Source: Antedon mediterranea
Taxonomy: Eukaryota > Animalia > Echinodermata
Reading direction: 5' to 3'
Length of the DNA stretch: 64,000 nucleotides
Assembly: GCF_964355755.1 (NCBI RefSeq)
Contig: NC_092676.1
Location: 9,215,888 to 9,279,887, forward strand
Under the pieces are notes generated by a model. It saw only the letters and a list, made by a program, of their open reading frames with translations, made no database searches and was not told the origin of the DNA. The position numbers and the translations under genes are program-made. Shown here in pieces: positions 1 to 61,584 of the stretch. The number at the start of each line of letters is the position of its first letter. The stretch's first letter is position 1.

Positions 1-219
1 AATCAATATTAATTGATTTAAAGGAGGTTTGCGCAGCTTTTTTTGGAGGTTTGCGCTGTGAAATCAGTAATTTTCCCAAAAATTGAAGTTTTTCACCCAA
101 AAAAAGTCAAACTTAAAGGAATTTTATATTTTTTCCCCATAAATTGTCTCCCTATATAGGTCTAGTTGTGTTTTAATCAATATTAATTTTTTTGTTGTTT
201 GCGCAGTTTAGCAATACCC
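1..219. mobile_element. Right part of the TIR element (MITE-like) seen complete at 20215-20765
   Basis: Same ~175-bp internal repeat; ends in gcaataccc followed by aacttttt. Confidence 0.7.
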
Positions 220-870
220 AACTTTTTAGGTAGTTCAAATTCAGGTTCACTTGCAATATTCTGTAAACTAAGAATTTGTTGCTCAAGAGACCAGTTTCTT
301 TCACTCATTTCTTTAAAAGCTTTACTAAGGTGAACAAAATTTGAATGGATTTCTTGAATTAGTGTAGCTGTTGTTTTAATTCAGAAACTTTCTCATCAGT
401 TTGCTTTATTTTCAGCTTTAGTGATGGGATCTGGTCCCATTATTTAGGTGTTTGAGTTGAACAATCAATTGCTTTCACAAACTCAGAGGATTTACAATTC
501 TGACTGTAATCGTTGAGTGTTATTTCTTCAATTAACGGCGCTGTTCCAATATTTAGCTCGTCTTTTTTTATTTCCTTTCATAATCATAGCTTAATTTTCT
601 GAATAGATCAATATTATCAGGAGTCGATGTTTCAAATGCAAGCCTATCAAAATGACTTCTAAGTTCATCATATGCAAAGCCATAAAAGCTAGAGTTTGTT
701 GTATCTAGAATGCTTGGAGCTTTTATATGACCATAGCTAGGCCACTGGTTTTCCATTGTTAGCTTTGTTTGAAATTGGGCGGAAAAAGCTTGTGTACTTA
801 CTTGAACAATAGAAAGCTGGTGTATCAATTGTTCTTGCTTGAGCCTAAGATCCTCAACATGAAAAAACAC
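220..870 (-). pseudogene. Degenerate coiled-coil-like ORF, probably LINE ORF1 remnant (also in the other 896-bp units and at 20085-21416)
   Basis: The 100-aa ORF continues through stops and frameshifts into heptad-like LKLKIKQTDEKVSELKQQL and LSKAFKEMSERNWSLEQQILSLQ. In copy 2, removing the MITE extends it to SNTFDVL (NRFxxL-like) and then into a LINE ORF2 tail on the same strand. Confidence 0.45.
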
Positions 871-3185
871 TTAATATCCTGCTTATAATATTGACTTTGA
901 CAATAAAAATTACATCTCCGTGTTGAGAAAATAACAGTTTAGACAATTTATCAGTCACTAGGTGGTAGAAAGTTGAAAACTATTTTATGGAGAAGATTTT
1001 TCAATAGCTTTTTTCAAGAGCTTCTTGGCTTGGCTAAGTCGAAACTGGTTTTAATTAATTAATTTTATCCTAAAAAAGTACAAGATTGCCCATATATTAT
1101 TAGGCTATCTAGGACCAGGTTCTTTCTATGAATATAGGCTAGGCTATATTTATATGTAACTCGGCGTTTACGCCAAAAAAACATGAGCCTGGTTTTTATT
1201 TAGTAGGCCTAGCCTAGTCGACAACATCATTCCCGCACTTTCATCGTTCATTTTATAAGTTGTCCGTCCTAAATAAGGGCCTAGCTAGGCTTACCTAGCC
1301 CATTAAGCCTAGCCTAAATTGTAGTCATCAGAAAGAGCACTAATAAAAAAAACAGATGCACAATAAGTAATCACAAACTCAGAGGATTTACAATTCCGAC
1401 TGTAATCGTTGAGTGTTATTTTTTCAATTAACGGCGCTGTTTCAATATTTAGCTCGTCTTTTTTTATTTCCTTTCATAATCATAGCTTAATTTTCTGAAT
1501 AGATCAATATTATCAGGAGTCGATGTTTCAAATGCAAGCCTATCAAAATGACTTCTAAGTTCATCATATGCAAAGCCATAAAAGCTAGAGTTTGTTATAT
1601 CTAGAATGCTTGGAGCTTTTATATGACCATAGCTAGGCCACTGGTTTTCCATTGTTAGCTTTGTTTGAAATTGGGCGGAAAAAGCTTGTGTACTTACTTG
1701 AACAATAGAAAGCTGGTGTATCAATTGTTCTTGCTTGAGCCTAAGATCCTCAACATGAAAAAACACTTAATATCCTGCTTATAATATTGACTTTGACAAT
1801 AAAAATTACATCTCCATGTTGAGAAAACAACAGTTTAGACAATTTATCAGTCACTAGGTGGTAGAAAGTTGAAAACTATTTTATGGAGAAGATTTTTCAA
1901 TAGCTTTTTTCAAGAGCTTCTTGGCTTGGCTAAGTCGAAACTGGTTTTAATTAATTAATTTTATCCTAAAAAAGTACAAGATTGCCCATATATTATTAGG
2001 CTATCTAGGACCAGGTTCTTTCTATGAATATAGGCTAGGCTATATTTATATGTAACTCGGCGTTTACGCCAAAAAAACATGAGCCTGGTTTTTATTTAGT
2101 AGGCCTAGCCTAGTCGACAACATCATTCCCGCACTTTCATCGTTCATTTTATAAGTTGTCCGTCCTAAATAAGGGCCTAGCTAGGCTTACCTAGCCCATT
2201 AAGCCTAGCCTAAATTGTAGTCATCAGAAAGAGCACTAATAAAAAAAACAGATGCACAATAAGTAATCACAAACTCAGAGGATTTACAATTCTGACTGTA
2301 ATCGTTGAGTGTTATTTCTTCAATTAACGGCGCTGTTTCAATATTTAGCTTGTCTGTTTTTATTTCCTTTCATAATCATAGCTTAATTTTCTGAATAGAT
2401 CAATATTATCAAGAGTCGATGTTTCAAATGCAAGCCTATCAAAATGACTTCTAAGTTCATCATATGCAAAGCCATAAAAGCTAGAGTTTGTTATATCTAG
2501 AATGCTTGGAGCTTGTATATGACCATAGCTAGGCCACTGGTATTCCATTGTTAGCTTTGTTTGAAATTTGGCGGAAAAAGCTTGTGTACTAATACTTGAA
2601 CAATAGAAAGCTGGTGTATCAATTGTTCTTGCTTGAGCCTAAGATCCTCAACATGAAAAAACACTTAATATCCCGCTTATAATATTGACTTTGACAATAA
2701 AAATTACATCTCCATGTTGAGAAAACAACAGTTTAGACAATTTATCAGTCACTAGCTGGTAGAAAGTTGAAAACTAATTTATAGAGAAGATTTTTCAATA
2801 GCTTTTTTCAAGAGCTTCTTGGCTTGGCTAAGACTGTCGAAACTGGTTTTAATTAATTAATTTTATCCTAAAAAAGTACAAGATTGCCCATATATTATAG
2901 GCTATCTAGGACCAGGTTCTTTCTATAAATATATGCTAGGCTATATTTATATGTAACTCGGCGTTTACGTCAAAAAAACATGAGCCTGGTTTTTATTTAG
3001 TAGGCCTAGCCTAGTCGACAACATCATTCCCGCACTTCCATCGTTCATTTTATAAGTAGTCCGTTCTAAATAAAAGGGCCTACCCTAGGCCTAGCTAGCT
3101 AGGCTTACCTGCCCATTAGGCCTAGCCTAAATTGTAGTCATCAGAAAGAGCACTAATCAAAAAACAGATACACAATAAGTAATCA
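475..3185 (+). repeat. 896-bp tandem repeat, 3 units
   Basis: Units start with tcacaaactcagagg at 475, 1371 and 2267. Repeated ORFs are offset by exactly 896 bp (568, 1464, 2360). Confidence 0.95.
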
Positions 3186-3234
3186 ATGATATATCAATAT
3201 TTTAACACACAAACAGAAAATGAAACCAACTTAC

Positions 3235-3420
3235 AGTATGTTTAGAACGGGGCTAAGCTTGCAAACAAATACTGTGTAGGCTAGGCCTACTACTCTCTCC
3301 GCGAGCGTAAACATCATTTAATCCACATGTGTTCGGTCATAGAGAAAAGTTTACTTTCTATTGACTATGCATGGTTCGGTACGGTCTGATGATTTTGAAG
3401 AGCGCCACCAATAATTTAGT
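3235..3420 (-). promoter_or_regulatory. Candidate non-coding first exon and promoter of a PFAS copy lying left of the window
   Basis: Minus-strand donor GTAAGT (plus acttac 3229-3234) with locally CpG-richer sequence. Duplicate of 38893-39065. Inference only. Confidence 0.3.
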
Positions 3421-6400
3421 AAGTGAGTCAAAAGGTTGATACGAAGAATTAATAATGTCATTGAATGATATAATAATTGCATAATAATAAAGTAATACTA
3501 ATTATAATCGAATGAAGAAATGATACATTTATTCTATAATATCATTCGTAATAAAAAAAATTTACACAATTACGATTATTGACTCATTTAAAATCATGAA
3601 CGATGCGAGTTGCGAACCTTTCAATTGATTTGATTAAAAATGACTATAGGAGGCTCCAAATATCTACGAAATATGTTATCCGAGATACAGAACAAAGAAT
3701 TTGTAAACCAATTGAATATTTTTAATGACAGTAAATATGAAAATGTGTGTGTTTATTAGAGTGTGCATATCCATTCAACAGTATCGACTGTAAACATCGT
3801 GAGGTGGTTTCCACATTCGTATGATCAAACGGTACAGGGTATGATCAACTAGCGTTCGTGTTCCCACCTATAATCATCCATTCATAGAAGTACTGATGAA
3901 GATATCAATCTGTGGCAACAATAGAATGGACCCGAGACCTGGCTATCTTCGACTTTTAAATGATAGAAAGTTTTGAAAATTTTGTTTCTAGAAATGTACG
4001 TTGTATGATGTATAGGCCTATGTTTATTAAAAAATTGTTGTAGTTTTCTAAATTACATTGTACAAGTTGCGAAGAGGAAACTGTTATTTGATCGTAAGTT
4101 AACGTGTACATAAAGCAAAACTATCCATCCATAGGGTCATTTATCTTTTGCTAATTAATCTCCTCTTGCTTGATTGCACTCAAGCAACAATACTACCATT
4201 GTAATAGCACAATGGAAGATTAAAAGATAAACTAAATCACACAGTACAGTCTAAATACTAAAACAACTAAAACAATTCAATACAAAACTTAATTTAAAGG
4301 TATTAGATCAGGCATCAAGTCTGCCCAAAATAATGATAAAAGTATGCACATCACTCACCTAAAATAGAGAGCCAATATCCTCATTGAGTGCATGGAGGTA
4401 TACCTCCATGTTGAGTGTAATAAAAATAACTTCAAAACTTTAAGTGTACAAACTGTACAACGTGTAAATATCACAATCTTCTTTAGCTTGAATTGTACTT
4501 TAAACTTAGTACTCTTTTAGTATACCGTATATAATATATATATATATGTCTTTCAGTACTTTCAAATAGGTTCTCGAACTCAACGTTGTTCGAAATGTAA
4601 AAGTATATAAAGTTGAAATTTAATTAAAGTTGGAGTGTCCAGCACGTCCGATGGCAAGAGGCAAAGAGAAAGAAATCTCCCAAAACATACCCTAATGTCA
4701 TCCAAAATTGTCAAACAAGGTTTACCCCTATTGGTCCATTCTTGTTACTAGGCAAAACTCAAGAGGGGTAAATTGACCGATTGGTCAATTCCCAAATTTA
4801 GGACCTCCCATTTAAATAGATAAACATGTAAGAAGATTAAAACAGAACAAAGAGAATTCTTAAAAGGATTAATTAACAAAATGATTAAAACATATGCAGT
4901 TCCAAGGAAAAGCAATATAATGCAAACATCTTAATGCTATATTGATAAACAATCTTGCCCACCCACTGCACCCAGCTGCATTACATTGTAGGTACATTGG
5001 AAAATAATAAAAAGTAAAGGAAAAGAAAACATGTCTAAAACATGACAGGGTTACATCCTCCCCTAACTTAAATTGCTACCTTCGGGAGCAAAAACACAAA
5101 ATATCAAACATTACAAGTAGAGTCACCAGTCAAAGTGGAAAAAAAAAAAGGATTAAAATCGTATCTGTTTAATTTATCTTGGTGAACAGGAAGTGTGATA
5201 TAAACTCATTCTGCCTGGACACAATTTCAGTAATATTCACAATAACTTTTTCGTTATTAAGTTGATTGCTATAGTCTTGAATTTTTTGAAGAATTATTAT
5301 AGATTTTTTTGCAACAAAATCTTTCCAGTAGTTCAAAAGTTATGATAAAATATCTAATTTTTCTGAGATATCCTTGTGGCTATTCTAATTATTACACACA
5401 CCCCACTGCTCAAATGCATGTTGGCTATTCCAAACTTGCTGGCTAGTCTGAAGATAGTACAGTTGGTAGGGATTCTCATAGAGATATTTTCACTATAATA
5501 TATCTATGGCATTCTCAATGTGTACACATAAGTAATTAAATAATTCCTTGCTGTTGGAAGTTTATTTTTAATATCAATAAAGTAAATAACAAAATAAAGA
5601 ATTAGCTATAATTATAACACATTTAAAATGAATGCCTTTTATAATTAGTTACCTAAAGTAACTTTACTCCACTTTTTTTTACATATAATATAATAATTTA
5701 TTTGGAAGCTACACTTTTGAAACAGTGGCACACTTCTTGAATGAAGGTGCATCCAGAGTAAGTAAAATAAATAAATATTATTTAACAATAGGCCTATTAG
5801 TACAAGAGTCAACTTATTTGACAAAAGAACGCATTTCAATTAGTCAATTTACATGTTGAAAAATAATCAAAATATTCATTAAGTACCTAAATATAATTAC
5901 AATTTTCACTTTAATGTGTTTTTATTATTCTGTGCCTGCTAATTTTTTAGATAGACAATATAATGAACAAAGAACAGAATCCAATAAACATTAAAGGAAA
6001 TGAACTAGGCCTACAGACCTATTGTTAATTTGTAGAGTCCTATGAAAAGAAATTTGAAGAACAAAAGGCATAATGGGTGGAAACCATTATACAGAATATA
6101 ATAGATGATATCAGTAATGTGTAAATGTACTGGTGGTGTAAAGAAAAGGTAAAACAAAAAGAGATATCTTTTGATTTGTTAAATCTAGGCCAGTAGGTAG
6201 GTAGGTCTGTTACCATGTTTGTTTAAAACAATCAGGACAGACGATGGACTCGGACAGCCAGGCCCATAAATAAAATAGGGAGAGGCTTAGGCCATTCCTA
6301 GACATAACCGCAAAATAATCAATTAAACTCTTAAAATCAATCTAACCCCAATAAACTGAACTTAAATAATCTTTTCTATATCAGTAAAATCGTGCGTGAA

Positions 6401-7155
6401 CTATAGTCAAAACCCGCTAAAAACTCGGGCCTGTCGCGTTGGGCCCAATGTTGGTAGCAGGCTACTTATCCATGTGTGTATTATCGTTTACATTTTCGTT
6501 GGAGATTTTCAGTGTAGTTTTGAAAAGAAATGATGTTAGTCTTATACTAATACTAAATTAATTAGATTATTTTACGGAAAATATATTTTTATTAAAATTA
6601 TAATTTTAATCGCAGAAAATAAATTTTGGAGAGTTTAACATAAATAAAAAGCCTGATTGATAACAAAATAATTGCATCACCTTTTATTTTAACCCTGTGA
6701 AATGCGATTGTGTTTTGAAACTATAGGGTGGGTGTTTTCCAATGTTATTTTTAGTGCGCATATTTTGCTCACCACCGGCATCTGTGCTTATTTTTGAAAT
6801 ACTTAATAATAGATAAAATACATTTTAATATATAATAATATAAAATATATATTATATAATATAATTTTATTTATATGAATTTTATTGCGTATTTATTTTA
6901 AAATATGCAAATATGCCTCAATTATTAGTGACAAAGGACAAGGAAGCCCGGGTCAAAAACATATTCACACGTCGTCCACGATAAACACATTTTAAATTTA
7001 AAACAAAACATAGTAATTATTGTAATTTTGAATTGGTATAGGTCACATCTTTAAAATATAAGTTTCCTAATAATTATCTTCTAATGATCATGAATTATTA
7101 TTAAAATAAAATATACATGTCACATGTCGCCCTGCCAAACTAAACTTTATGAAAG

Positions 7156-7372
7156 GAGCTTTGCGTTGCGTGTGTAAACTCTCCAGAGTCAGGAGAGTTA
7201 GCCTGCTAAACTTTACATTGGAAGAATAGGGATGGAGCTTTGCGTCCGCAAACTCTCCAGAGTCACGAGAGAGTTAGCCTGCTAAACTTTACATTGGGAG
7301 AATAGGAAATAGAGCTTTGCGTCCGCAAACTCTCCGGAGTCACGAGAGAGAGTTAGCCTGCTAAACTTTACC
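7156..7372 (+). repeat. ~78-bp tandem repeat, 3 units (2 units at 46269-46410)
   Basis: gagctttgcg...aaactctcc(a/g)gagtca...gagttagcctgctaaactttac recurs at about 7156, 7234 and 7311. Confidence 0.85.
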
Positions 7373-7609
7373 GGAAGAAAGGCGATTGTTTCGCCTGAAC
7401 GGTTTTCTATTCAAAGCATACAGGCAAGCATTGCACTGGTAGGTGGGGGGAAGACAACAGATAGAACAGCATTCGTGTTCTAAGATCTTGGCTCTTTAAG
7501 GAAATTAAATATACTTTTCTTACTTTCAAAATACGTTATATTTGATGGATTTTTACAAATCAAGGATAAATTTGTATGTTTTAAATACTTCTAAACACAT
7601 TTATCTTGT

Positions 7610-8950
7610 TTAAAGTGATGAAATATGTTTCTGAAAAAAGTTAGGATATGCTGTAAAAACTTGTAGTAGGCCTACACATGTTATCAGGGATGGGTTCAAC
7701 AGACTGTGAAAGTTCAGTAATAGTAGGTTCAACAATAGGTTCAATAATGGGTTCAATATTAGGTTCAATAATAGGAGTATCATTAGGTAAATCAATAATG
7801 GGACTTGGAAGAATCTCGGTATCTTCAAAACAAAGTTGAGAAACAGACACAGGCTCAGGGCAAGGTTGGAGGGATCATGGTGCGGAATCTAAACAAGATT
7901 GCGGGATGAGTAGAGGTTCAGAACAAGATTGCGGGATGAGTAGAGGTTCAGCACAAGCCACAGGAGAATCAAGAATAGTGACAGAAAGTTTAGGACTGGG
8001 TACAGATGATACTGGGGAGTCAACTACAGCTGGCTCTACATCTGTTGCAACTTCACTTGCTTCTTTAACATCAAACTCACAAAAACTGACGTGACTACAG
8101 ACTCGATGCTCTCGTCAAAGAACGCATTTACAGGACTACTATCAGTGGAAACATTTCCAGCACTAATATGAGATATATAGCAGGAGTAGTTTCATGGACA
8201 AATTCTTGGGCATCTACATTCAGCGGAAAATGGGGTGAAATGGACGAAACTGTAAACGTTTCTACAGGGAGTGTGACTGAGAAGTCTAATGAGACTAGCA
8301 TTGTAACCTCCTTCTCACTGGATTCACCACTGTCATCATGCTCGCTCTCAGTGACATGAACTTTTGCCTTAGACCGCGTGTAATAGGGCGGTTTATCTTC
8401 TGTTTAGTAGGTTTTGCTGGTGGATCTTCTTTGTTTAAATAGTCGATGGGCAGAAGTATGTTTCGATGTAGTGTTCGTAGGCCTACTCGACCACTATTTG
8501 ATTCTGGCTTCACACGGAGTCCCACTGGTCAGCGAGTTTGTGTTTACCCTGTAGTCCCAGATTTCGAATCAACACTCGATCACCTGGATGAAGATCATTG
8601 ACTCGTACTTTCAAATCATGTCGAACTTTGTTCTTGCGTGCTGACTTCGCTGCCTCTTCAGATGCCATTTGATAGGCAAGCGATAGTTGGTCTCTCAGAT
8701 CGTTGACGTACTTTATGGGGTCAGCGTTACCAAATCCATCTGGGCTAATTCCAAACCGTAAGTCAACAGGAAGTCTCGCCTCTCGTCCGAACATCAGAAA
8801 ATAAGGTGAGAAACCTGTACTGTCATGCTTCATACAGTTGTAAGCATGAACCAAAGCACTGATATAGCGACTCCAGCTTTCCTTCTTTTCGCCTTCGAGT
8901 GTATACCTAACATATTCATTAAAGTTCGATTAAAGCGTTCAGGTTGTGCT
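7610..8950 (-). mobile_element. Ty3/Gypsy LTR retrotransposon remnant (integrase core C-terminus and low-complexity tail)
   Basis: Translation ERFNRTL...WSRYISALVHAYNCMKHDSTGFSPYFLMFGREARLPVDL...PGDRVLIRN...HKLADQW...RTLHRNILLP is typical Gypsy integrase with GPY/F-region sequence. Frameshifted and 5'-truncated at about 8950. Confidence 0.9.
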
Positions 8951-8954
8951 AGAT

Positions 8955-9830
8955 TAAACTCACTCACTCTCTTAACTATCTTTTAACTTCCCAGAGACGA
9001 GAAGTGTTTACACCTACTTGTTCATTCCTTGCAAGACATGCTTCCTGATGATGTCATCATCATGTCAACCCAATCACGTGTGTCCTCCGCAAGTAAAAAC
9101 GCACTTGATGAACTAGAAAAGGAAATAACTACAAAACTTAAAATTCTAACCGCTCACAAATTTGATTACAAAGTGGAAAAAGTGAAAGATGATAAAGAAA
9201 AAAAAACAAAATCTGTAGAAGAGTGGAGGAAAGAGTTTAGACAAGACAAGAATATTTCTTACAAAAAACGCTGCTTGCTTATTTTTATTGCTAAGGTCAA
9301 GTCTGGGGGGTCACTTCATCAAGCCTAGATACTTATCCTTTTACAAAAAAAAACTTCAATGGACTGTTTTGATAATAATTCAATGATTATCTGACAGTGA
9401 ATTATAGTACCCATGTAATATCATGGGACTCATAAATACCAGAAATGCTTTGGGATTTGTTATTAGACTCTTTTCCCAGCCGTTTTTTTGGATTCAATAC
9501 CTATAAATTATAGTCGAGTTTCCATTTTAACAAAAATGTCAAAGTGTAGTATTATACTGCTGCTTGATTTCATCTAATGAATGAGTTATCTCGTATGACG
9601 TAGCGGGCTAGAGCAGCAGCGTGAAAAAACTTAAAGAAGTGGAATCTTAATAAAAGTGATTGTTGCAAAAAGTGTTGTATAGAAATAGAAAGTGAAAAAC
9701 ATATGTTGTACACCTGTAACAGCATTCAATCAGATTTGAGGAAGTTCCGTAAACTGATCGGTTAAATGTATTCCGACTAATGAAACATTACGGTCAGGTT
9801 TCCCCGAGTGGTAAGACATAATTATAGGAA
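8955..9830 (+). mobile_element. Degenerate non-LTR retrotransposon 3' fragment (L1/Tx1-like ORF2 C-terminus); duplicated at about 47990-48860
   Basis: About 9628-9720 translates LKKWNLNKSDCCKKCCIEIESEKHMLYTC, a CxxC-x-H-x4-C zinc knuckle of the zf-RVT type. Flanking frames are broken. Confidence 0.5.
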
Positions 9831-9861
9831 CTCAGAACACGCTTGTTAATGAACTCATCTC

Positions 9862-9867
9862 TTTATT
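9862..9867 (-). terminator. Candidate PFAS polyadenylation signal AATAAA
   Basis: tttatt on the plus strand about 650 bp past the stop, at the edge of an AT-rich UTR-like tract next to transposon sequence. Confidence 0.3.
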
Positions 9868-10514
9868 TACATTTAGTATTTACAAATCTTGCATTATTTA
9901 TAAAACAAGCAAACGGATTATCACTTGGAATTTATTTAAGATAGAACTATTTAAAAAAATTTAATTAATAAAAGCAATATTATGTTCAAAATGTAAAACT
10001 ATACAATTTTATAAAAGTACCCAAACAAAACATAATCTTATAATGCAATATACCATTTTATCATATTTATTTATATTATATCGAAACTCTTTTTAATACT
10101 GAATATCAATCTTTATATCGTTTTAGCTCTGTAATATAAATTTTCTCTGTATACATGTTTGTTTTATCTAGACTTCAACACAATTTCAAAATATTTTACA
10201 TAATCTTCCTCTGTCTGCGTAATATCACTTAAATATTCATTGATAAATAGATAGATAGACAGACATATATACTGTAACCTTCACCATATTGTTGTTTATC
10301 ATTGCAATAAAAGTGGGTTGCCCCCACAAAAGAGAAAAAAAATATATATTGCTGAAATTAAGCCTCAATAAATAATATTGTTGAGAAGAGGAACACATTT
10401 ATACAGTATATAATTATATCCCATTTTCATGCATAAAGCAATAGTATCTGCCTCTGAAGCACCACCAACAAGATATTATTTTTTTAAAATATATCCCATG
10501 TATAAGCAATATTA

Positions 10515-19250: not shown

Positions 19251-19361
19251 ATTCTTTAAAAAAATAAATTATTAAATATTAGATCTATATTATTTTATAT
19301 ATTATTATTTATTATTATTGATGTTTACACTAAAAAAGTATAACTATAAAGTATATGACTT

Positions 19362-25700: not shown

Positions 25701-26039
25701 GCAATTTAAAATGCGTATTTTTAGCATTAATTTAGTAAACACCACTTTTAAAGTGGCCATATGACCACACCCCGATGCCTCGGGCCGGGTACACAATAGT
25801 ATAGATTGACGTAGTATGGTCCTGGCTTTCCAGAAATGTGCCACTTGCCCCGGCCTAGTGCGGGCAAGTACGGATTTTAAAGCAATTTAAAATGCGTATT
25901 TTTAGCATTAATTTAGTAAACACCACTTTTAAAGTGGCCATATGACCACACCCCGATGCCTCGGGCCGGGTACACAATAGTATAGATTGACGTAGTATGG
26001 TCCTGGCTTTCCAGAAATGTGCCACTTGCCCCGGCCCAG
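22790..26039 (-). repeat. 181/190-bp satellite, left arm (about 17-18 monomers)
   Basis: Tandem monomers in reverse orientation; ORF offsets of 371 bp equal 190+181. Confidence 0.95.
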
Positions 26040-38000: not shown

Positions 38001-38062
38001 ATTTCTGGAATTCCAGGACCATACTACGTCAATCTATACTATTGTGAACCCGGCCCGAGGCG
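26040..38062 (+). repeat. 181/190-bp satellite, right arm (about 64 monomers) with higher-order repeats
   Basis: Orientation flips at ...ccggcccag|atatttctgga. A 5-monomer period of 931-935 bp starts at 28260, 29191, 30123 and 31058. A 2064-bp period links 32638 and 34702. Confidence 0.95.
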
Positions 38063-38405
38063 TTGGTATGGTCGTAATATCGGAACTAAAAAACGTAAAT
38101 CTGTGATAAAATAGGTACATCTACACTAGGTCTACTTTGGTACGAATTTGGGCCAGCCGGTCGGCCGCGGCCTAGCGAACGTCGAATAAGGAACCAACTT
38201 CACGAATGAATGTCGAATAGGGAATAAGTAACAGCAGGAGATTGGTTGGTGGCGCACGGCATATTTACCGCTGGGAAATTATCATTTTCGAAATTTTGGC
38301 CTAGCCTAGCGAATGTCGAACGTCGAATAAGGAACCAACTTCCATTGACGAATGTCGAATAAGGAATAAGTAACCAACTTCACGGCGCTTTTTTCAAGAG
38401 CTTCT

Positions 38406-38476
38406 TTTTTTTTTTTATATGTGAACTTTATTCAATCAATTGTACATTTGTTATAATGGTAACCACAATAAGACAG
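38406..38476 (-). mobile_element. ~70-bp retroposed 3' fragment with AATAAA and poly(A) tail
   Basis: Minus strand reads ...gattgAATAAAgttcacatat(A)12. Absent from the equivalent cttcttggcttggc site in all other 896-bp units. Confidence 0.75.
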
Positions 38477-39065: not shown

Positions 39066-41740
39066 TAGTAAGTGAGTCAAAAGGTTGATACGAAGAATTA
39101 ATAATGTCATTGAATGATATAATAATTGCATAATAATAAAGTAATACTAATTATAATCGAATGAAGAAATGATACATTTATTCTATAATATCATTCGTAA
39201 TAAAAAAAATTTACACAATTACGATTATTGACTCATTTAAAATCATGAACGACGCGAGTTGCGAACCTTTCAATTGATTTGATTAAAAATGACTATAGGA
39301 GGCTCCAAATATCTACGAAATATGTTATCCGAGATACAGAACAAAGAATTTGTAAACCAATTGAATATTTTTAATGACAGTAAATATGAAAATGTGTGTG
39401 TTTATTGGAGTGTGCATATCCATTCAACAGTATCGACTGTAAACATCGTGAGGTGGTGGTTTCCACATTCGTATGATCAAACGGTACAGGGTATGATCAA
39501 CTAGCGTTCGTGTTCCCACCTATAATCATCCATTCATAGAAGTACTGATGAAGATATCAATCTGTGGCAACAATAGAATGGACCCGAGACCTGGCTATCT
39601 TCGACTTTTAAATAATAGAAAGTTTTGAAAAATTTGTTTCTAGAAATGTACGTTGTATGATGTATAGGCCTATGTTTATTAAAAAATTGTTGTAGTTTTC
39701 TAAATTACATTGTACAAGTTGCGAAGAGAAAACTGTTATTTGATCGTAAGTTAACGTGTACATAAAGCAAAACTATCCATCCATAGGGTCATTTATCTTT
39801 TGCTAATTAATCTCCTCTTGCTTGATTGCACTCAAGCAACAATACTACCATTGTAATAGCACAATGGAAGATTAAAAGATAAACTAAATCACACAGTACA
39901 GTCTAAATACTAAAACAACTAAAACAATTCAATACAAAACTTAATTTAAAGGTATTAGATCAGGCATCAAGTCTGCCCAAAATAATGATAAAAGTATGCA
40001 CATCACTCACCTAAAATAGAGAGCCAATATCCTCATTGAGTGCATGGAGGTATACCTCCATGTTGAGTGTAATAAAAATAACTTCAAAACTTTAAGTGTA
40101 CAAACTGTACAACGTGTAAATATCACAATCTTCTTTAACTTGAATTGTACTTTAAACTTAGTACTCTTTTAGTATACCGTATATAATATATATATATATG
40201 TCTTTCAGTACTTTCAAATAGGTTCTCGAACTCAACGTTGTTCGAAATGTAAAAGTATATAAAGTTGAAATTTAATTAAAGTTGGAGTGTCCAGCACGTC
40301 CGATGGCAAGAGGCAAAGAGAAAGAAATCTCCCAAAACATACCCTAATGTCATCCAAAATTGTCAAACAAGGTTTACCCCTATTGGTCCATTCTTGTTAC
40401 TAGGCAAAACTCAAGAGGGGTAAATTGACCGATTGGTCAATTCCCAAATTTAGGACCTCCCATTTAAATAGATAAACATGTAAGAAGATTAAAACAGAAC
40501 AAAGAGAATTCTTAAAAGGATTAATTAACAAAATGATTAAAACATATGCAGTTCCAAGGAAAAGCAATATAATGCAAACATCTTAATGCTATATTGATAA
40601 ACAATCTTGCCCACCCACTGCACCCAGCTGCATTACATTGTAGGTACATTGGAAAATAATAAAAAGTAAAGGAAAAGAAAACATGTCTAAAACATGACAG
40701 GGTTACATCCTCCCCTAACATAAATTGCTACCTCCGGGAGCAAAAACACAAAATATCAAACATTACAAGTAGAGTCACCAGTCAAAGTGGAAAAAAAAAG
40801 GATTAAAATCGTATCTGTTTAATTAATCTTGGTGAACAGGAAGTGTGATATAAACTCATTCTGCCTGGACACAATTTCAGTAATATTCACAATAACTTTT
40901 TCGTTATTAAGTTGATTGCTATAGTCTTGAATTTTTTGAAGAATTATTATAGATTTTTTTGCAACAAAATCTTTCCAGTAGTTCAAAAGTTATGATAAAA
41001 TATCTAATTTTTCTGAGATATCCTTGTGGCTATTCTAATTATTACACATACCCCACTGCTCAAACGCATGTTGGCTATTCCAAACTTGCTGGCTAGTCTG
41101 AAGATAGTACAGTTGGTAGGGATTCTCATAGAGATATTTTCACTATAATATATCTATGGCATTCTCAATGTGTACACATAAGTAATTAAATAATTCCTTG
41201 CTGTTGGAAGTTTATTTTTAATATCAATAAAGTAAATAACAAAATAAAGAATTAGCTATAATTATAACACATTTAAAATGAATGCCTTTTATAATTAGTT
41301 ACCTAAAGTAACTTTACTCCACTTTTTTTTACATATAATATAATAATTTATTTGGAAGCTACACTTTTGAAACAGTGGCACACTTCTTGAATGAAGGTGC
41401 ATCCAGAGTAAGTAAAATAAATAAATATTATTTAACAATAGGCCTATTAGTACAAGAGTCAACTTATTTGACAAAAGAACGCATTTCAATTAGTCAATTT
41501 ACATGTTGAAAAATAATCAAAATATTCATTAAGTACCTAAATATAATTACAATTTTCACTTTAATGTGTTTTTATTATTCTGTGCCTGCTAATTTTTTAG
41601 ATAGACAATATAATGAACAAAGAACAGAATCATCATAGTTAGCTAATTCTCGTTGTGAGCGGACGTGTTCATATCGAGCTCCGCTAGGCTACCCATTGTG
41701 TGGATACTAGGCCAGTCAACGTAGGCATACTGTAGTCTAC

Positions 41741-44700
41741 ATGATGTGTTCGACCGGGCTACGTGTGCCGCTACTTATTTTGAACTTATTTCTTGGCCTC
41801 TATTTTTCAAGTTTTAATATGGGATTTTCATCCAGAAATCAATGGCTAAGGCCAGTCGATGGATACGCTGAGCCGGTAAGCTGCAACATTCCTAGCATCG
41901 TTGTATGTAAATGTTGGAATTTGTATCTATGCGGTCAAAGCAGTACGACTACGAGTGTTGTTGCATTCCAACGTAGCAGCAGACCGTCAAGGAAGATCTA
42001 CAGCGCACCACGTTTGCTCTATTCTAATTCCACTGTTACATTCTGTATTCTTTTAAGTGGCGATGTTGAATCGAATCCAGGTCCAGGTAATACTCAGACA
42101 TCTTCAGTTAAGGTATACTATCAAAACGTACGTAGCCTGAAGAATAAAATGGACGTATACAACTCAGATCTGAATGCACACCTAATTCAGAGCAATTTGG
42201 ATATTGTCGCACTTACGGAAACATGGTTAAACTGCAACGTGCTCGATTCTGAACTTTCCGTTTCTAATTACACTTTATTTCGACGCGATAGAGATACTGA
42301 TAAACGCGGTGGTGGTATCCTGATGCTAGTGAATAACAAATTTACCTGTAACCGAGTGGAACGCCTAGAAAGTGATTCAACGGAGTTCATGTGGATAGAG
42401 ATTCAACTAAAGCGGCGTAGTAGCCTACTTGTTGGATTATTCTATAGACCACCAAACGCTACACCCGATGTCCTCCGTCGTTTTACTTCGTCTGTGGAAA
42501 TCGCTATGCTCTACTACAAAAACAGTGAATTCCTCATTCTTGGAGATTTCAACCTGCCCGAAATTAATTGGAGTAGTAACCCTTATTCTGCTCCAGCTCA
42601 GTCCATGGGAGAACACTTACTTGATGTATTGCTTTCTAGCTGTGGCCTATTTCAATGCAATACGTACTGTACAAGAATGGATAAAATGCTTGATCTTGTT
42701 ATTTGTAGTAAAAACATTTCCGACAAAGTCTATACTGCTAACGATATTTTTTTATCTGACCACTCATCTTTGAGAATTGATTTCCGTTTAAATTTTGATG
42801 TTAAATGTAGTAATGATAATTTGAATCGTAAAAGTATAATTTACAATTTTAAAGCACTTGATGTCAATAATCTATGTAATACTCTTAACTGTGTTCCATG
42901 GAGTGTCTTAATTGATTTTGAAGGTGATTTAAATGAAGCTTTGGATATGTTTTATAATTTGTTAAATGCTGCCGTCAATGACACAGTGCCTAAAATTAGA
43001 AAGCGCAGAAAGCTTCCTCCGTGGTTTGACAATGAGTTGAGAAGTGCGCTTCAACTCAAAGAAAAGTATTATAGATATCTGAAAAAAAATAATAATCGGT
43101 TAGCCCAAAGTAATTTCAAATTTGCTCGCGCGTCTTTTAAAAAAATGTGCAATAAAAAGTACAAAGATTACTTGGACTCTTTGGCTAAGCAAATTGTCAC
43201 TAACAGTAAAAGATTCTGGAGCTGGATGAAAACTAAATACAAGTCAAATAATCTTCCTTCTGTCATGAGTCACGATAACATTTCATTCCAGTCTAATTAT
43301 GATAAAGCTACCACATTTAATTCTTATTTTCATTCTTTTTTCAGTGAGCCTTCTCCGGACGTTCCCCGGGACTATCCAGGTCTTCCTGACTATGCGGTGG
43401 ATAACTTAAGTTCTCTGTCTGTGAATCAGCATTCTGTGGAAAAGGCACTTAGTAACATTGATATCAATAAAGCTACTGGCATTGATCAGATTAGTAACGT
43501 TGTCTTAAAGGGTGCCTCCTCCTCACTCTCTTATCCGCTTTGCAAATTGTTTCAGCTATCTATTAATTCTGGGGTTTTTCCTTCATCTTGGAAACACGCT
43601 AATATTGTCCCAATTCACAAGAGTGGTCCCAAAAAACTAATCTGTAACTATCGTCCTATTTCGTTATTGCCTACTATGTCTAAGATTTTTGAGCGCATTG
43701 TGCATGATGGTTTGTCATCACATGTTGCTAATGCTTTAAGTCCTAGGCAGCATGGTTTTGTCTCTGGGAGATCATGTCAAACCAACCTCGCACTGCTTCT
43801 TGCTACATCATACGATGCAATTAACAGCAAGAAGCAGTGCGATGTGATTTACACTGATTTCTCTAAGGCTTTTGATTCCGTTTCCCATGATTTGCTTATT
43901 TTTAAACTTTCAAAATTTGGTTTATCCGGTTCACTGTTAAGTTGGTTTAAAAGCTATTTAACTAATATACAACAGCGTGTTGTCATTGGGGGAGAGACAT
44001 CTGATTGGCTCCCTGTGTTATCGGGCGTTCCGCAGGGCTCGATCCTGGGCCCGCTTTTGTTTAATTTATTTATCAACGATCTTCCTTTAAAATTTAATCA
44101 TTCCGAGTCTCTTTTATTTGCTGACGATCTGAAATTGTTTAAAGTGATTACCACTCCACAGGATGCTTTTTCACTTCAGGAGGATCTGGATGGTCTCGTG
44201 GAATGGACGGAGAAGTGGGGGATAAAACTTAATGCTAATAAATGCAAATATTTATCTATAACACTTAAAAAAAGGCCTGTGCTCTTCAATTATAATCTGA
44301 GTGGACATGATCTTGAGATGGTTTATGTATGGAAAGATTTAGGTATTTTTATTGATAGTAAATTAAATTTTTGTTCACATATTAATCATGTGTTGTCAAA
44401 AGCTAATAGAATGATGGGCTTAATATGGAGAAATTGTAGGTTTATGAACGACGGCAGGGCACTTTTATCTTTATACAAATCTATTATACGTCCTCACCTT
44501 GAATATTGTTCTGCAATTTTCAATTCAATTTCTCCATGTCAGGCCCGTCGAATCGACACTGTTCAACGGAAGTTTGTTCGATTCCTGTCTTATAACTGTG
44601 TTAATTTTGCCTTTTCCATTGATTCTGTCAGCAATCGTCGAACGATATCTGATATGGTTTTTTTATATAATATTTTAAATTCTAAATATGACTGTTCATT

Positions 44701-44917
44701 AATTTCACTATTTAGTTTAAATGTTCCTGGTCGTACACGAAATAGACATTTATTGCATATTCCTTTTAGCCGTGTCGACTGTACTAAGAGGGGACTTTTT
44801 CATAGACTACCTTATACATTTAATAATCTAAATAGCAATCATATCGATATTTTTAATGATAGACTTGGTTATTTTAAGAGGACGATGATGTGTTCACTTC
44901 TTGAACAGTCTGCATAA
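41741..44917 (+). CDS. LINE polyprotein: N-terminal peptide + 2A motif + APE endonuclease + reverse transcriptase, 1058 aa, intact
   Basis: APE motifs YQNVRSL, ETWL, YRPP, GDFN, SDH. RT motifs YRPISLL, QHGF, DFSKAFD, GVPQGS, FADD. CR1-like RPHLEYC. LLSGDVESNPGP lies at aa 104-115. Confidence 0.97.
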   Translation: MMCSTGLRVPLLILNLFLGLYFSSFNMGFSSRNQWLRPVDGYAEPVSCNIPSIVVCKCWNLYLCGQSSTTTSVVAFQRSSRPSRKIYSAPRLLYSNSTVTFCILLSGDVESNPGPGNTQTSSVKVYYQNVRSLKNKMDVYNSDLNAHLIQSNLDIVALTETWLNCNVLDSELSVSNYTLFRRDRDTDKRGGGILMLVNNKFTCNRVERLESDSTEFMWIEIQLKRRSSLLVGLFYRPPNATPDVLRRFTSSVEIAMLYYKNSEFLILGDFNLPEINWSSNPYSAPAQSMGEHLLDVLLSSCGLFQCNTYCTRMDKMLDLVICSKNISDKVYTANDIFLSDHSSLRIDFRLNFDVKCSNDNLNRKSIIYNFKALDVNNLCNTLNCVPWSVLIDFEGDLNEALDMFYNLLNAAVNDTVPKIRKRRKLPPWFDNELRSALQLKEKYYRYLKKNNNRLAQSNFKFARASFKKMCNKKYKDYLDSLAKQIVTNSKRFWSWMKTKYKSNNLPSVMSHDNISFQSNYDKATTFNSYFHSFFSEPSPDVPRDYPGLPDYAVDNLSSLSVNQHSVEKALSNIDINKATGIDQISNVVLKGASSSLSYPLCKLFQLSINSGVFPSSWKHANIVPIHKSGPKKLICNYRPISLLPTMSKIFERIVHDGLSSHVANALSPRQHGFVSGRSCQTNLALLLATSYDAINSKKQCDVIYTDFSKAFDSVSHDLLIFKLSKFGLSGSLLSWFKSYLTNIQQRVVIGGETSDWLPVLSGVPQGSILGPLLFNLFINDLPLKFNHSESLLFADDLKLFKVITTPQDAFSLQEDLDGLVEWTEKWGIKLNANKCKYLSITLKKRPVLFNYNLSGHDLEMVYVWKDLGIFIDSKLNFCSHINHVLSKANRMMGLIWRNCRFMNDGRALLSLYKSIIRPHLEYCSAIFNSISPCQARRIDTVQRKFVRFLSYNCVNFAFSIDSVSNRRTISDMVFLYNILNSKYDCSLISLFSLNVPGRTRNRHLLHIPFSRVDCTKRGLFHRLPYTFNNLNSNHIDIFNDRLGYFKRTMMCSLLEQSA
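42062..42085 (+). other. 2A-like StopGo (ribosomal skipping) motif DVESNPG-P
   Basis: Exact match to the D(V/I)ExNPGP consensus, preceded by the typical LLxGD context. Confidence 0.9.
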
Positions 44918-46633
44918 CCTGTTTTAATTGAAATTTTTTATGGCATGCCAATCTATGTTTTATATATATATTTATATATTTTATCTGTATTTTATTGTTA
45001 ACCGTTTTTGATGTTGTATTGTTTTATGTTTCAAACCTGTTAGTGGCGGTATTTATCGCTGTTGGTTTTAATTGAATAAAATAAAATAAAATAAAATAAA
45101 ATTAAAGGAAATGAACTAGGCCTACAGACCTATTGTTAATTGTAGACTCCTATGAAAAGAAATTTGAAGAACAAAAGGCATAATGGGTGGAAACCATTAT
45201 ACAGAATATAATAGATGATATCAGTAATGTGTAAATGTACTGGTGGTGTAAAGAAAGGGTAAAACAAAAAGAGATATCTTTTGATTTGTTAAATCTAGGC
45301 CAGTAGGTAGGTAGGTCTGTTACCATGTTTGTTTAAAACAATCAGGACAGACGATGGACTCGGACAGCCAGGCCCATAAATAAAATAGGGAGAGGCTTAG
45401 GCCATTCCTAGACCTAACCGCAAAATAATCAATTAAACTCTTAAAAATCAATCTAACCCCAATAAACTGAACTTAAATAATCTTTTCTATATCAGTAAAA
45501 TCGTGCGTGAACTATAGTCAAAACCCGCTAAAAACTGGGGCCTGTCGCGTTGGGCCCAATGTTGGTAGCAGGCTACTTATCCATGTGTGTATTATCGTTG
45601 ACATTTTCGTTGGAGATTTTCAGTGTAGTTTTGAAAAGAAATGATGTTAGTCTTATACTAATACTAAATTAATTAGATTATTTTACGGAAAATATATTTT
45701 TATTAAAATTATAATTTTAATCGCAGAAAATAAATTTTGGAGAGTATAATATAAATAAAAAGCCTGATTGATAACAAAATAATTGCATCACCTTTTATTT
45801 TAACCTTGTGAAATGCGATTGTGTTTTGAAACTATAGGGTGGGTGTTTTCCAATGTTATTTTTAGTGCGCATATTTTGCTCTCCACCGGAATCTGTGCTT
45901 ATTTTTGAAATACTTAATAATAGATAAAATACATTTTAATATATAATAATATAAAATATATATTATATAATATAATTTTATTTATATGAATTTTATTGCG
46001 TATTTATTTTAAAATATGCAAATATGCCTCAATTATTAGTGACAAAGGACAAGGAAGCCCGGGTCAAAAACATATTCACACGTCGTCCACGATAAACACA
46101 TTTTAAATTTAAAACAAAACATAGTAATTATTGTAATTTTGAATTGGTATAGGTCACATCTTTAAAATATAAGTTTCCTAATAATTATCTTCTAATGATC
46201 ATGAATTATTATTAAAATAAAATATACATGTCACATGTCGCCGCCCTGCCAAACTAAACTTTATGAAAGGAGCTTTGCGCTGCGTGTGTAAACTCTCCAG
46301 AGTCAGGAGAGTTAGCCTGCTAAACTTTACATTGGGAGAATAGGAAATAGAGCTTTGCGTCCGCAAACTCTCCGGAGTCACGAGAGAGAGTTAGCCTGCT
46401 AAACTTTACCGGAAGGCGATTGTTTCGCCTGAACGGTTTTCTATTCAAAGCATACAGGCAAGCATTGCACTGGTAGGTGGGGGGAAGACAACAGATAGAA
46501 CAGCATTCGTGTTCTAAGATCTTGGAAATTAAATATACTTTTCTAACTTTCAAAATACGTTATATTTGATGGATTTTTACAAATCAAGGATAAATTTGTA
46601 TGTTTTAAATACTTCTAAACACATTTATCTTGT

Positions 46634-47985
46634 TTAAAGTGATGAAATATGTTTCTGAAAAAAGTTAGGATATGCTGTAAAAACTTGTAGTAGGCCTACA
46701 CATGTTATCAGGGATGGGTTCAACAGACTGTGAAAGTTCAGTAATAGTAGGTTCAACAATAGGTTCAATAATAGGTTCAATATTAGGTTCAATAATAGGT
46801 TCAATAATAGGAGTATCATTAGGTAAATCAATAATGGGACTTGGAAGAATCTCGGTATCTTCAAAACAAAGTTGAGAAACAGACACAGGCTCAGGGCAAG
46901 GTTGGAGGGATCATGGTGCGGAATCTAAACAAGATTGCGGGATGAGTAGAGGTTCAGAACAAGATTGCGGGATGAGTAGAGGTTCAGCACAAGCCACAGG
47001 AGAATCAAGGATAGTGACAGAAAGTTTAGGACTGGGTACAGATGATACTGGGGAGTCAACTACAGCTGGCTCTACATCTGTTGCAACTTCACTTGCTTCT
47101 TTAACATCACACTCACAAAAACTGGCGTGACTACAGACTCGATGCTCTCGTCAAAGGACGCATTTACAGGACTACTATCAGTGGAAACATTTCCAGCACT
47201 AATATGAGATATATAGCAGGAGTAGTTTCATGGACAAATTCTTGGGCATCTACATTCAGCGGAAAATGGGGTGAAATGGAAGAAACTGTAAACGTTTCTA
47301 CAGGGAGTGTGACTGAGAAGTCTAATGGGACTAGCATAGTAACCTCCTTCTCACTGGATTCACCACTGTCATCATGCTCGTTCTCAGTGACATGAACTTT
47401 TGCCTTAGACCGCGTAATAGGGCGGTTTATCTTCTGTTTAGTAGGTTTTGCTGGTGGATCTTCTTTGTTTAAATAGTCGATGGGCAGAAGTATGTTTCGA
47501 TGTAGTGTTCGTAGGCCTACTCGACCACTATTTGATTCTGGCTTCACACGGAGTCCCACTGGTCAGCGAGTTTGTGTTTACCCTGTAGTCCCAGATTTCG
47601 AATCAACACTCGATCACCTGGATGAAGATCATTGACTCGTACTTTCAAATCATGTCGAACTTTGTTCTTGCGTGCTGACTTCGCTGCCTCTTCAGATGCC
47701 ATTTGATAGGCAAGCGATAGTTGGTCTCTCAGATCGTTGACGTACTTTATTGGGTCAGCGTTACCAAATCCATCTGGGCTAATTCCAAACCGTAAGTCAA
47801 CAGGAAGTCTCGCCTCTCGTCCGAACATCAGAAAATAAGGTGAGAAACCTGTACTGTCATGCTTCATACAGTTGTAAGCATGAACCAAAGCACTGATATA
47901 GCGACTCCAGCTTTCCTTCTTTTCGCCTTCGAGTGTATACCTAACATATTCATTAAAGTTCGATTAAAGCGTTCAGGTTGTGCTA
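46634..47985 (-). mobile_element. Ty3/Gypsy integrase remnant, duplicate of 7610-8950
   Basis: Identical 114-aa integrase ORF at 47544-47888. Confidence 0.9.
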
Positions 47986-49502
47986 GATTAAACTCACTCA
48001 CTCTCTTAACTATCTTTTAACTTCCCAGAGACGAGAAGTGTTTACACCTACTTGTTCATTCCTTGCAAGACATGCTTCCTGATGATGTCATCATCATGTC
48101 ACCCCAATCACGTGTGTCCTCCGCAAGTAAAAACGCACTTGATGAACTAGAAAAGGAAATAACTACAAAACTTAAAATTCTAACCGCTCACAAATTTGAT
48201 GACAAAGTGGAAGAAGTGAAAGATGATAAAGAAAAAAAAACAAAATCTGTAGAAGAGTGGAGGAAAGAGTTTAGACAAGACAAGAATATTTCTTACAAAA
48301 AACGCTGCTTGCTTATTTTTATTGCTAAGGTCAAGTCTGGGGGGTCACTTTATCAAGCCTAGATACTTAGAGTATCCTATTACAAACAAAAACTTCAATG
48401 GACTGTTTTGATAATAATTCAATGATTATCTGACAGTGAATTATAGTACCCATGTAATATCATGGGACTCATAAATACCAGAAATGCTTTGGGATTTGTT
48501 ATTAGACTCTTTTCCCAGCCGTTTTTTGGATTCAATATAAATTATAGTCGAGTTTCCATTTTAACAAAAATGTCAAAGTGTAGTATTATACTGCTGCTTG
48601 ATTTCATCTAATGAATGAGTTATCTCGTATGACGTAGCGGGCTAGAGCAGCAGCGTGAAAAAACTTAAAGAAGTGGAATCTTAATAAAAGTGATTGTTGC
48701 GAAAAGTGTTGTATAGAAAGAGAAAGTGAAAAACATATGTTGTACACCTGTAACAGCATTCAATCAGATTTGAGGAAGTTCCGTAAACTGATCGTTAAAT
48801 GTATTCCGACTAATGAAACATTACGGTCAGGTTTCCCCGAATGGTAAGACATAATTATAGGAACTCAGAACACGCTTGTTAATGAACTCATCTCTTTATT
48901 TACATTTAGTATTTACAAATCTTGCATTATTTATAAAACAAGCAAACGGATTATCACTTGGAATTTATTTAAGATAGAACTATTAAAAAAAATTTAATTA
49001 ATAAAAGCAATATTATGTTCAAAATGTAAAACTATACAATTTTATAAAAGTATCCAAACAAAACATAATCTTATAATGCAATATACCATTTTATCATATT
49101 TATTTATATTATATCGAATCTCTTTTTAATGCTGAATATCAATCTTTATATCGTTTTAGCTCTGTAATATAAATTTTCTCTGTATACATGTTTGTTTTAT
49201 CTAGACTTCAACACAATTTCAAAATATTTTACATAATCTTCCTCTGTCTGTGTAATATCACTTAAATATTCATTGATAAATAGATAGATAGACAGAAATA
49301 TATACTGTAACCTTCACCATATTGTTGTTTATCATTGCAATAAAAGTGGGTTGCCCCCACAAAAGAAAAAAAAAATATATATTGCTGAAAAATATAATAT
49401 GAATTGATAATAAAAAAGGAAAGATGATTTTTTTGAAATTGGGTTATGACATAATAATATGACAAATTTAAGTGTTTAAGAATACATTTTTTGTTTTAAT
49501 AG

Positions 49503-57967
<8,465 letters not shown>

Positions 57968-61582: not shown

Positions 61583-61584
61583 TT

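What the first reader, a model, noticed from the sequence alone, without database searches (positions are those of the whole stretch)
1..49390. PFAS lies in a circularly permuted, tandemly repeated ~20.5-kb unit with its breakpoint in the PFAS 3' UTR
Seen: one repeat unit (10358-49390; about 20.5 kb by the 1-to-20535 offset) reads proximal 3' UTR, PFAS body, PFAS upstream region, Gypsy and LINE remnants, then distal PFAS 3' UTR. It stops 158 bp short of where the stop codon would be and switches to GART intron sequence. PFAS-upstream sequence is therefore joined to PFAS-downstream sequence, and copy 1 implies another PFAS left of the window. Established: such permuted order marks duplication through circular DNA intermediates (cattle KIT colour-sidedness, tilapia vasa). 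Inference: a PFAS-bearing circle or concatemer integrated into GART. An alternative is tandem amplification followed by a deletion running into GART.
Basis: partly seen in the sequence, partly recalled or inferred. Interest (0 to 1): 0.75.

Follow-up and report, generated by a model that had tools for sequence, protein, structure and literature searches.

The report
Amplified purine-synthesis gene in feather star
In a feather star, the purine-making gene PFAS sits in a repeated 20-kb block, likely copied from another chromosome and multiplied in tandem to six or more copies that likely still work, right beside a headless second copy of its pathway partner GART; the repeat is real, but the proposed origin through a DNA circle is unproven.

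Summary
The repeat is real: 1-10357 matches 20535-49390 at 0.5-0.9% divergence, apart from three later insertions in the right copy. PFAS is intact; GART lacks codons 1-202. The window encodes two Antedon mediterranea RefSeq proteins exactly. That assembly has one PFAS beside FANCB on a 31.9-Mb contig and at least six further distinct PFAS proteins, a full GART and this truncated GART on a 30.6-Mb contig. New here: the unit carries a FANCB exon piece, which marks the donor (FANCB shares PFAS's contig in 6 of 6 ambulacrarians; GART in 0 of 5). Not supported: the unit does not end in distal PFAS 3' UTR. It ends in dispersed-repeat DNA, and a relative's PFAS mRNA does not run into it. The GART piece differs from the full GART at 18 residues, so it is probably a second copy, not the interrupted gene. 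Best reading: interchromosomal duplication, tandem amplification, then a repeat-end rearrangement into a GART duplicate. A circle remains possible (about 0.3); the left boundary was unreachable. Array proteins differ at 1-7 residues against about 23 expected if neutral, so they are likely under selection. The scan's earlier notes showed nothing like it.

The parts
1..10357 (.). Right part of the left repeat unit (its left end is outside the window); has three 896-bp subunits at 475-3185
7600..8942 (-). Gypsy-like LTR-retroelement remnant (integrase C-terminus 8510-8929). The label rests on a recalled motif; Pfam and PDB gave no hit. Co-amplified with PFAS (X1 contig depth 283)
8943..9238 (+). 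FANCB piece: about 50 bases of presumed intron tail, splice acceptor, codons 679-759 of 807. Donor marker. The likely unit-closing joint lies at about 8943-8946
   Evidence: contig ends (X1 record 2 starts at 8943, X6 record 17 stops at 8946)
9239..10357 (.). Dispersed-repeat block R; replaces the FANCB tail and abuts the PFAS 3' UTR (joint J1 at 10357|10358)
   Evidence: tables 2 and 8
10358..10514 (-). Proximal PFAS 3' UTR (157 bases); the X1 PFAS contig starts at 10365
10515..19250 (-). PFAS (FGAM synthase), intact, 21 coding exons, 1355 aa, identical to P0243
19251..22461 (.). PFAS-upstream DNA: LINE 3' remnant (label recalled, no Pfam hit), 174-bp tandem, 896-bp subunits. How much of it is donor-derived was not tested
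22462..38389 (.). Foldback-type element, 15,928 bp, right unit only: about 330-bp terminal inverted repeats (158 exact), arms of 190-bp satellite (17 copies one way, 64 the other), target duplication 9 bp (reads 9-15)
38404..38476 (-). About 70-base poly(T)-headed insert, right unit only
41632..45094 (+). LINE, right unit only; open frame 41711-44917 (1068 aa, endonuclease + reverse transcriptase), (AATAA)n tail, small target deletion
47977..48272 (+). Second FANCB piece (codons 679-759)
48273..49390 (.). Second copy of repeat block R; ends at joint J2 (49390|49391), the array's right end
49391..57967 (+). 5'-truncated GART copy: 121 bases of intron, then 12 exons from codon 203 to the stop; open frame of 803 aa from the first Met, identical to P0241; keeps whole AIR synthetase and GAR transformylase domains, lacks the first half of GAR synthetase

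Best explanation
The window holds the right end of an array of a 20-kb PFAS-bearing block that was likely copied from the FANCB-PFAS locus on another chromosome, likely multiplied head-to-tail by unequal crossing-over to six or more copies, and likely joined at the edge of a dispersed repeat to a second, headless copy of GART. Steps: (1) a donor segment running from FANCB's last intron through PFAS into upstream DNA was copied (donor identity shown by the FANCB piece and by synteny; tail-to-tail orientation inferred). (2) Its ends were joined at about 8943 (inferred from contig ends; possible 4-base microhomology). (3) Repeat R replaced the FANCB tail and the distal UTR before amplification (both window copies share it: shown). 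(4) The unit multiplied, and copies then gained private insertions and subunit-number changes (shown for two units). (5) R's edge was joined to GART intron DNA by recombination with another R copy or by transposon-end activity (inferred from the two joints sharing one repeat edge). (6) Most PFAS copies stayed under purifying selection, so the array would raise PFAS dosage (selection supported, expression not shown).
For: Six distinct PFAS proteins, full GART and truncated GART share a 30,557,870-bp contig; a lone PFAS and FANCB have near-adjacent accessions on a 31,901,198-bp contig. FANCB and PFAS share a contig in 6 of 6 ambulacrarians where both were seen (Antedon, Anneissia, Glandiceps, Ptychodera, Amphiura, Acanthaster), GART and PFAS in 0 of 5 others. 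All six array proteins share substitutions against the lone PFAS (28-37 differences to it, 1-19 among themselves). The right unit has three insertions and one fewer 896-bp subunit than the left. In DNA run X6 of organism B, PFAS contigs (depth 30-47) match the FANCB contig (35), as for single copy; in X1 PFAS is at 240-393. Five array proteins differ at 1-7 residues, against 22.6 expected from the 0.72% non-coding divergence (Poisson P at most 1.3e-4). Of 13 listed differences between the window and the X1 contigs, 2 change a residue where 43% of sites would (P=0.036).
Against: No genome is held, so tandem placement of the other copies, the left boundary and the donor orientation were not seen. 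If FANCB lies head-to-head with PFAS, the unit is colinear with the donor and step 1 changes. Contig depth is not copy number, and X1 may be the assembly's own sample. Four of 17 window-versus-X1 differences were not listed; if all four changed residues, P=0.34. The non-coding divergence and the protein differences may come from different unit pairs, and gene conversion could homogenise the coding part. Two of six array proteins look damaged (1335 and 1242 aa), and two lack 4 residues. The array stem carries 19 derived residues against 9 in the donor (P=0.087), which suggests some relaxation. In RNA-like run X5, two exon-only PFAS contigs carry 8 differences in 603 bases where X1 has at most 1, so the main transcript there looks donor-type. 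FANCB and PFAS did not share a scaffold in Lingula (6 of 7 comparable species overall). Whether J2 is also non-native in GART was not tested.
Confidence: 0.55

Rival explanations
1. Circle model, revised: the FANCB-PFAS segment closed into a circle at about 8943, carried repeat R, and entered a GART intron through R (recombination with a resident R, or cutting at R's end); the R-flanked insert then amplified.
For: Donor and acceptor are on different contigs. The array's right end runs 1.4 kb past the closing joint instead of stopping at it, as for a circle opened elsewhere. A possible 4-base overlap at the closing joint. PMC7450558 (passages) describes such order flips with microhomology.
Against: The opening point is not contiguous donor sequence. 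Tandem array plus terminal deletion gives the same picture (PMC7188851 passages). The GART piece differs from the full GART by 18 residues. No GART 5' half was seen (the cluster lists only 803, 1000 and 1012 aa forms, though a short piece might cluster apart).
Confidence: 0.28
2. The GART piece is the other allele of the single GART gene, broken by the PFAS insertion; the assembler placed both haplotypes on one chromosome because the insertion made them look unlike.
For: Derived residues are balanced (8 in the piece, 6 in the full GART, P=0.79), and the native copies also carry changes at conserved sites, as in a highly polymorphic species.
Against: 18 residue differences in 803 is high for alleles (judgement). 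The 2.4-kb frame is intact. Depth over GART was not measured.
Confidence: 0.12
3. Assembly artefact: haplotypes or noisy reads stacked in tandem.
For: The two units are 99.1-99.5% alike, in the range of alleles. X1 may be the source sample.
Against: Six distinct PFAS proteins on one contig exceed two haplotypes. Clean transposon insertions with target duplication distinguish the units. X1 PFAS depth is about 10 times that expected from X6 after scaling by shared repeats (range 3-22, rough).
Confidence: 0.05

Closest known systems
Duplications via circular DNA intermediates: cattle KIT (Durkin 2012) and tilapia vasa (Fujimura 2011), both known here only as cited in PMC3420103 and PMC7450558; human cSDPs (PMC7450558, passages read)
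   Same: Intron-containing segment moved to a distant locus; donor ends joined; insert ends at a point other than the closing joint.
   Different: Here the insert is a multi-copy tandem array; the end point is a dispersed-repeat edge, not contiguous donor DNA; the acceptor flanks could not be rejoined.
Tandem duplication plus partial deletion, the false-positive pattern of PMC7188851 (passages read)
   Same: Gives the same swapped order without any circle; tandem copies are present here.
   Different: There the tandem duplication is at the donor; here it is at the recipient, after an interchromosomal move.
Interchromosomal segmental duplication with later ampliconic expansion (general class; PMC3420103 passages, otherwise recalled)
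   Same: Mosaic of gene pieces (FANCB exon, GART 3' part) and transposons around one intact gene; copy-private insertions.
   Different: The amplified gene is a core metabolic enzyme that is usually single-copy (recalled), and it has landed beside a piece of the next enzyme in its pathway.
Foldback transposons with satellite arms, such as Tetris of Drosophila virilis (PMC4079207, search listing and start of abstract only)
   Same: The 22462-38389 insert has long terminal inverted repeats, tandem-repeat arms and a target duplication.
   Different: 15.9 kb, 190-bp unit, no central coding part seen; a passenger, not the cause of the array.

Membership tests
Circular-intermediate duplication | Donor and acceptor at distant, non-tandem loci | tested here: met
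   Lone PFAS and FANCB on the 31.9-Mb contig, array and GART on the 30.6-Mb contig; synteny 6 of 6 versus 0 of 5
Circular-intermediate duplication | Closing joint that fuses the two donor ends | tested here: inconclusive
   Gypsy-like|FANCB-intron joint near 8943 inferred from contig ends; donor DNA and FANCB orientation not seen
Circular-intermediate duplication | Opening point is contiguous sequence in the donor | tested here: not met
   10357|10358 joins dispersed repeat to PFAS UTR; organism B's PFAS mRNA contig does not cross it and the X1 contig starts at 10365. The species' own donor DNA was not seen, so a donor-side insertion of R is not excluded
Circular-intermediate duplication | Acceptor flanks on both sides rejoin into one pre-insertion site | not testable with these tools
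   Left end is outside the window; no genome held
Circular-intermediate duplication | Tandem duplication plus deletion excluded | tested here: not met
   Tandem copies are present; PMC7188851 drops such cases
Circular-intermediate duplication | Only microhomology or short indels at joints, no repeat homology | tested here: inconclusive
   Both J1 and J2 sit at the edge of repeat R; a possible 4-base overlap at 8943-8946
Tandem segmental amplification | Head-to-tail direct copies of high identity | tested here: met
   for two units; placement of the others inferred
Tandem segmental amplification | More than two distinct copies (not haplotypes) | tested here: met
   Six distinct proteins on one contig
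Tandem segmental amplification | Raised raw read depth and spanning long reads | tested here: inconclusive
   Only contigs were served; depth 240-393 in X1 against 30-47 in X6, not a copy number
Functional PFAS (FGAM synthase) | Full-length open frame with canonical splice sites | tested here: met
   homology
Functional PFAS (FGAM synthase) | Transcribed from the array copies | tested here: inconclusive
   X5 exon-only contigs look donor-type, its intron-holding contigs look array-type; promoter and 5' non-coding exon not located
Trifunctional GART | Complete GARS, AIRS and GART domains | tested here: not met
   Residues 1-202 absent; AIRS and GART domains whole
Foldback-type DNA transposon (22462-38389) | Long terminal inverted repeats with tandem-repeat arms and a target duplication | tested here: met

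The most novel reading that the evidence does not exclude
A feather star has built a new purine-synthesis gene cluster: selected, multi-copy PFAS (step 4) placed beside a GART duplicate trimmed to the two enzymes that act just before and just after it (steps 3 and 5), both expressed and raising purine flux, with the PFAS block having arrived as a DNA circle that entered through a shared repeat.
Probability: 0.1. Interest if true: 0.8.

Novelty: new member of a known kind. Interest (0 to 1): 0.5.

Why it matters
If it holds, it is a young, well-marked case of a core metabolic gene jumping chromosomes and amplifying in a wild animal while staying under selection, with a passenger exon (FANCB) that names the donor and joints that can be read to the base. 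Landing next to a piece of the next enzyme in the pathway would test whether co-regulated genes are favoured rearrangement partners or whether selection on purine supply drew them together; by chance alone it is a rare neighbour, but a scan of this size will meet some. It is also a caution: a permuted order in a tandem array is not proof of a DNA circle.

Tried and rejected
No whole genome is held, so no dot-plot of the flank. The stretch 3190-7959 and everything right of 15900, J2 and GART included, were never laid on runs, so the donor share of the upstream DNA, the native GART intron and depth over GART are open. I first read run X5 as DNA and computed a five-fold excess of PFAS in X1 over X5; dropped, because X5 records 15 and 16 carry extra letters equal to the next exon lengths (266 vs 264, 254 vs 254), so X5 is likely RNA. 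No RNA holder was on record; that is no evidence on expression. Helitron or Helentron end at J: no terminal structure found by repeat search. A Pfam DFP hit on the 8990-9325 frame (E=0.022, below cut-off) was rejected once FANCB matched. FANCB homologues (60 of about 110 held) found no other FANCB exon in the window. Degenerate frames at 20753-21416 have no Pfam match. The Atlas gave no answer. Paper searches for PFAS copy number in echinoderms, purine gene clusters with GART and PFAS in invertebrates and FANCB-PFAS synteny returned 0 papers; searches listed nothing on this locus by title or abstract start. The library lacks most subscription journals, and no supplements were read. Earlier scan notes held nothing on this locus.
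Full report
1. The observation. Self-BLAST with the satellite masked shows 1-1917 = 20535-22464, 2820-5981 = 38477-41631 and 5983-10357 = 45095-49390. Four aligned blocks differ by 13, 15, 11 and 27 substitutions, 0.5-0.9%. Identity stops at 10357/49390, 157 bases beyond the PFAS stop codon. The right copy holds three insertions that the left lacks: a 15,928-bp foldback-type element with inverted 190-bp satellite arms and a 9-bp (readable as 9-15) target duplication, a 70-base poly(T)-headed piece, and a 3.5-kb LINE with an open 1068-aa endonuclease-RT frame. The left copy has three 896-bp subunits, the right two.

2. The genes. PFAS (19250-10515, minus) has 21 coding exons, all GT-AG, and equals P0243. 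The GART piece (49512-57967, plus) has 12 exons and equals P0241, 803 aa. GART residues 1-202 are absent. The piece keeps the whole AIR synthetase and GAR transformylase domains and half of GAR synthetase. Both proteins are Antedon mediterranea RefSeq models. That call lists one PFAS on a 31,901,198-bp contig and six distinct PFAS sequences (eight accessions, three of them identical and possibly isoforms) on a 30,557,870-bp contig, which also holds a full GART and this truncated one. Array proteins differ from the lone PFAS at 28-37 residues and from each other at 1-19. The GART piece differs from the full GART at 18.

3. The donor. FANCB lies on the 31.9-Mb contig with an accession two away from the lone PFAS. 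I looked up 9 of 105 FANCB homologues. FANCB and PFAS share a contig in Anneissia, Glandiceps, Ptychodera, Amphiura and Acanthaster (consecutive accessions there) as well as Antedon: 6 of 6 ambulacrarians, 6 of 7 with Lingula, which does not. Branchiostoma, Saccoglossus and Alosa could not be compared. GART and PFAS share a contig in 0 of 5 other ambulacrarians. The window's PFAS is therefore a derived copy, and its nearness to GART is new. Tail-to-tail orientation at the donor is inferred from parsimony: no other FANCB exon is in the unit. I put it at about three in four.

4. The joints. Contigs of four runs were laid on 7960-15900: X1 (organism A, possibly the assembly's sample, so not independent), X5 (organism A, another sample, likely RNA), X6 (organism B, DNA, contigs cross introns) and X9 (organism B, spliced). 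Native FANCB contigs in X5, X6 and X9 leave the window at 9238. 9239-10357 is dispersed repeat: summed depth 572-19,327 in X1 and 936-9,261 in X6. X9's PFAS contig has 465 letters left of 10490; depth arithmetic allows at most 71 more bases in bin 10345-10609 and at most 43 in the next bin, so it does not cross 10357. X1's PFAS contig begins at 10365. Hence the unit does not end in distal PFAS 3' UTR, and J1 is a non-native joint at or near the edge of repeat R; J2 falls at the same base of R. X1's FANCB contig starts at 8943 and X6's Gypsy-like contig stops at 8946, which marks the likely closing joint of the unit, with a possible 4-base overlap. These are inferences from contig ends in two species; a filter drops some records, and only the best-supported rows were shown.

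5. Real or artefact. Six distinct proteins on one contig cannot be two haplotypes. Copy-private insertions with a target duplication are biological. PFAS contig depth equals FANCB depth in X6 (30-47 vs 35) but is 240-393 in X1; scaled by ten repeat bins this is about 10-fold, range 3-22. That figure is rough, and the tool warns that depth is no copy number. The array thus likely post-dates the split from organism B. In X5, three intron-holding PFAS contigs and two Gypsy-like contigs are nearly identical to the X1 contigs, while two exon-only contigs carry 8 differences in 603 bases; this may mean array-type sequence in a second animal with a donor-type main transcript, or just a recombinant allele.

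6. Selection. Five array proteins differ at 1-7 residues; 22.6 are expected if the 0.72% non-coding divergence of the two window units applied (P at most 1.3e-4). The sixth differs at 17-19, partly through a mis-modelled start. Of 13 listed window-versus-X1 differences over PFAS, 10 are non-coding, 1 silent and 2 change a residue, where 43% of sites would (P=0.036; 0.006 to 0.34 depending on four unlisted sites). Against this: two models are truncated or gapped and two lack four residues, and the array stem has 19 derived residues against 9 in the donor, four of them at sites at least 86% conserved among 95 homologues (P=0.087). Reading: mostly functional copies under somewhat relaxed purifying selection.

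7. Mechanism. Most likely (0.55): interchromosomal copy of a FANCB-PFAS segment, head-to-tail amplification, then joining of R's edge to a GART duplicate by recombination with another R or by transposon-end activity. A circle entering through R (0.28) explains the same right end and predicts GART exons 1-5 on the left. PMC7450558 (passages) defines the circle class by order flip, contiguous opening point, rejoinable acceptor and no repeat homology; PMC7188851 (passages) excludes cases that tandem duplication plus deletion can explain. Two defining features were tested and not met, one could not be tested, so I do not file this as a member. The GART piece may instead be a broken allele (0.12). 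Durkin 2012 and Fujimura 2011 were not read, only seen cited.

8. Novelty. The process class is known. The locus was not found in print, within a library that lacks most subscription journals. What is unusual is the cargo: a core enzyme, usually single-copy (recalled), in seven or more copies, beside a GART piece that keeps exactly the steps before and after PFAS (pathway order recalled). That adjacency may be chance. Interest 0.5.

Noticed in passing
window 22462-38389: 15.9-kb foldback-type element made almost wholly of a 190-bp satellite, 17 copies facing 64 copies, abutting at 26039-26042 with no central coding part; it landed in a partly palindromic target, so the target duplication reads 9-15 bp.
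   Followed up: partly
window 41711-44917: Young LINE with an unbroken 1068-aa frame; an LLSGDVESNPGP stretch before the endonuclease matches the 2A ribosome-skipping motif known from such elements (PMC3708506, listing and abstract start only).
   Followed up: partly
window 475-3185, 20753-22461: 896-bp subunit (3 copies left, 2 right) and flank carry degenerate minus-strand coding-like frames with no Pfam match; may hold a neighbouring gene remnant, a LINE ORF1 or the PFAS promoter.
   Followed up: partly
window 12645-12817, 16500-16600, 51585-51738, 53851-53936, 59409-59565: Very high-copy short element (summed contig depth above 300,000 in X1) in PFAS and GART introns.
   Followed up: no
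P0124, P0242: The native PFAS and full GART also carry changes at nearly invariant sites (PFAS 351, GART 295), where the window copies keep the conserved residue.
   Followed up: partly
P0249, P0250, P0255, P0360: FANCB and PFAS appear to be conserved neighbours across echinoderms and hemichordates; one search found no paper on this pair.
   Followed up: partly
window 60280-62149: Local duplications of 320-530 bp with (TGTA)n and (TTTG)n runs downstream of the GART piece.
   Followed up: no
window 1-57967: Amplicon, broken gene pieces and fresh transposons together resemble a low-recombination or sex-linked region; untested.
   Followed up: no
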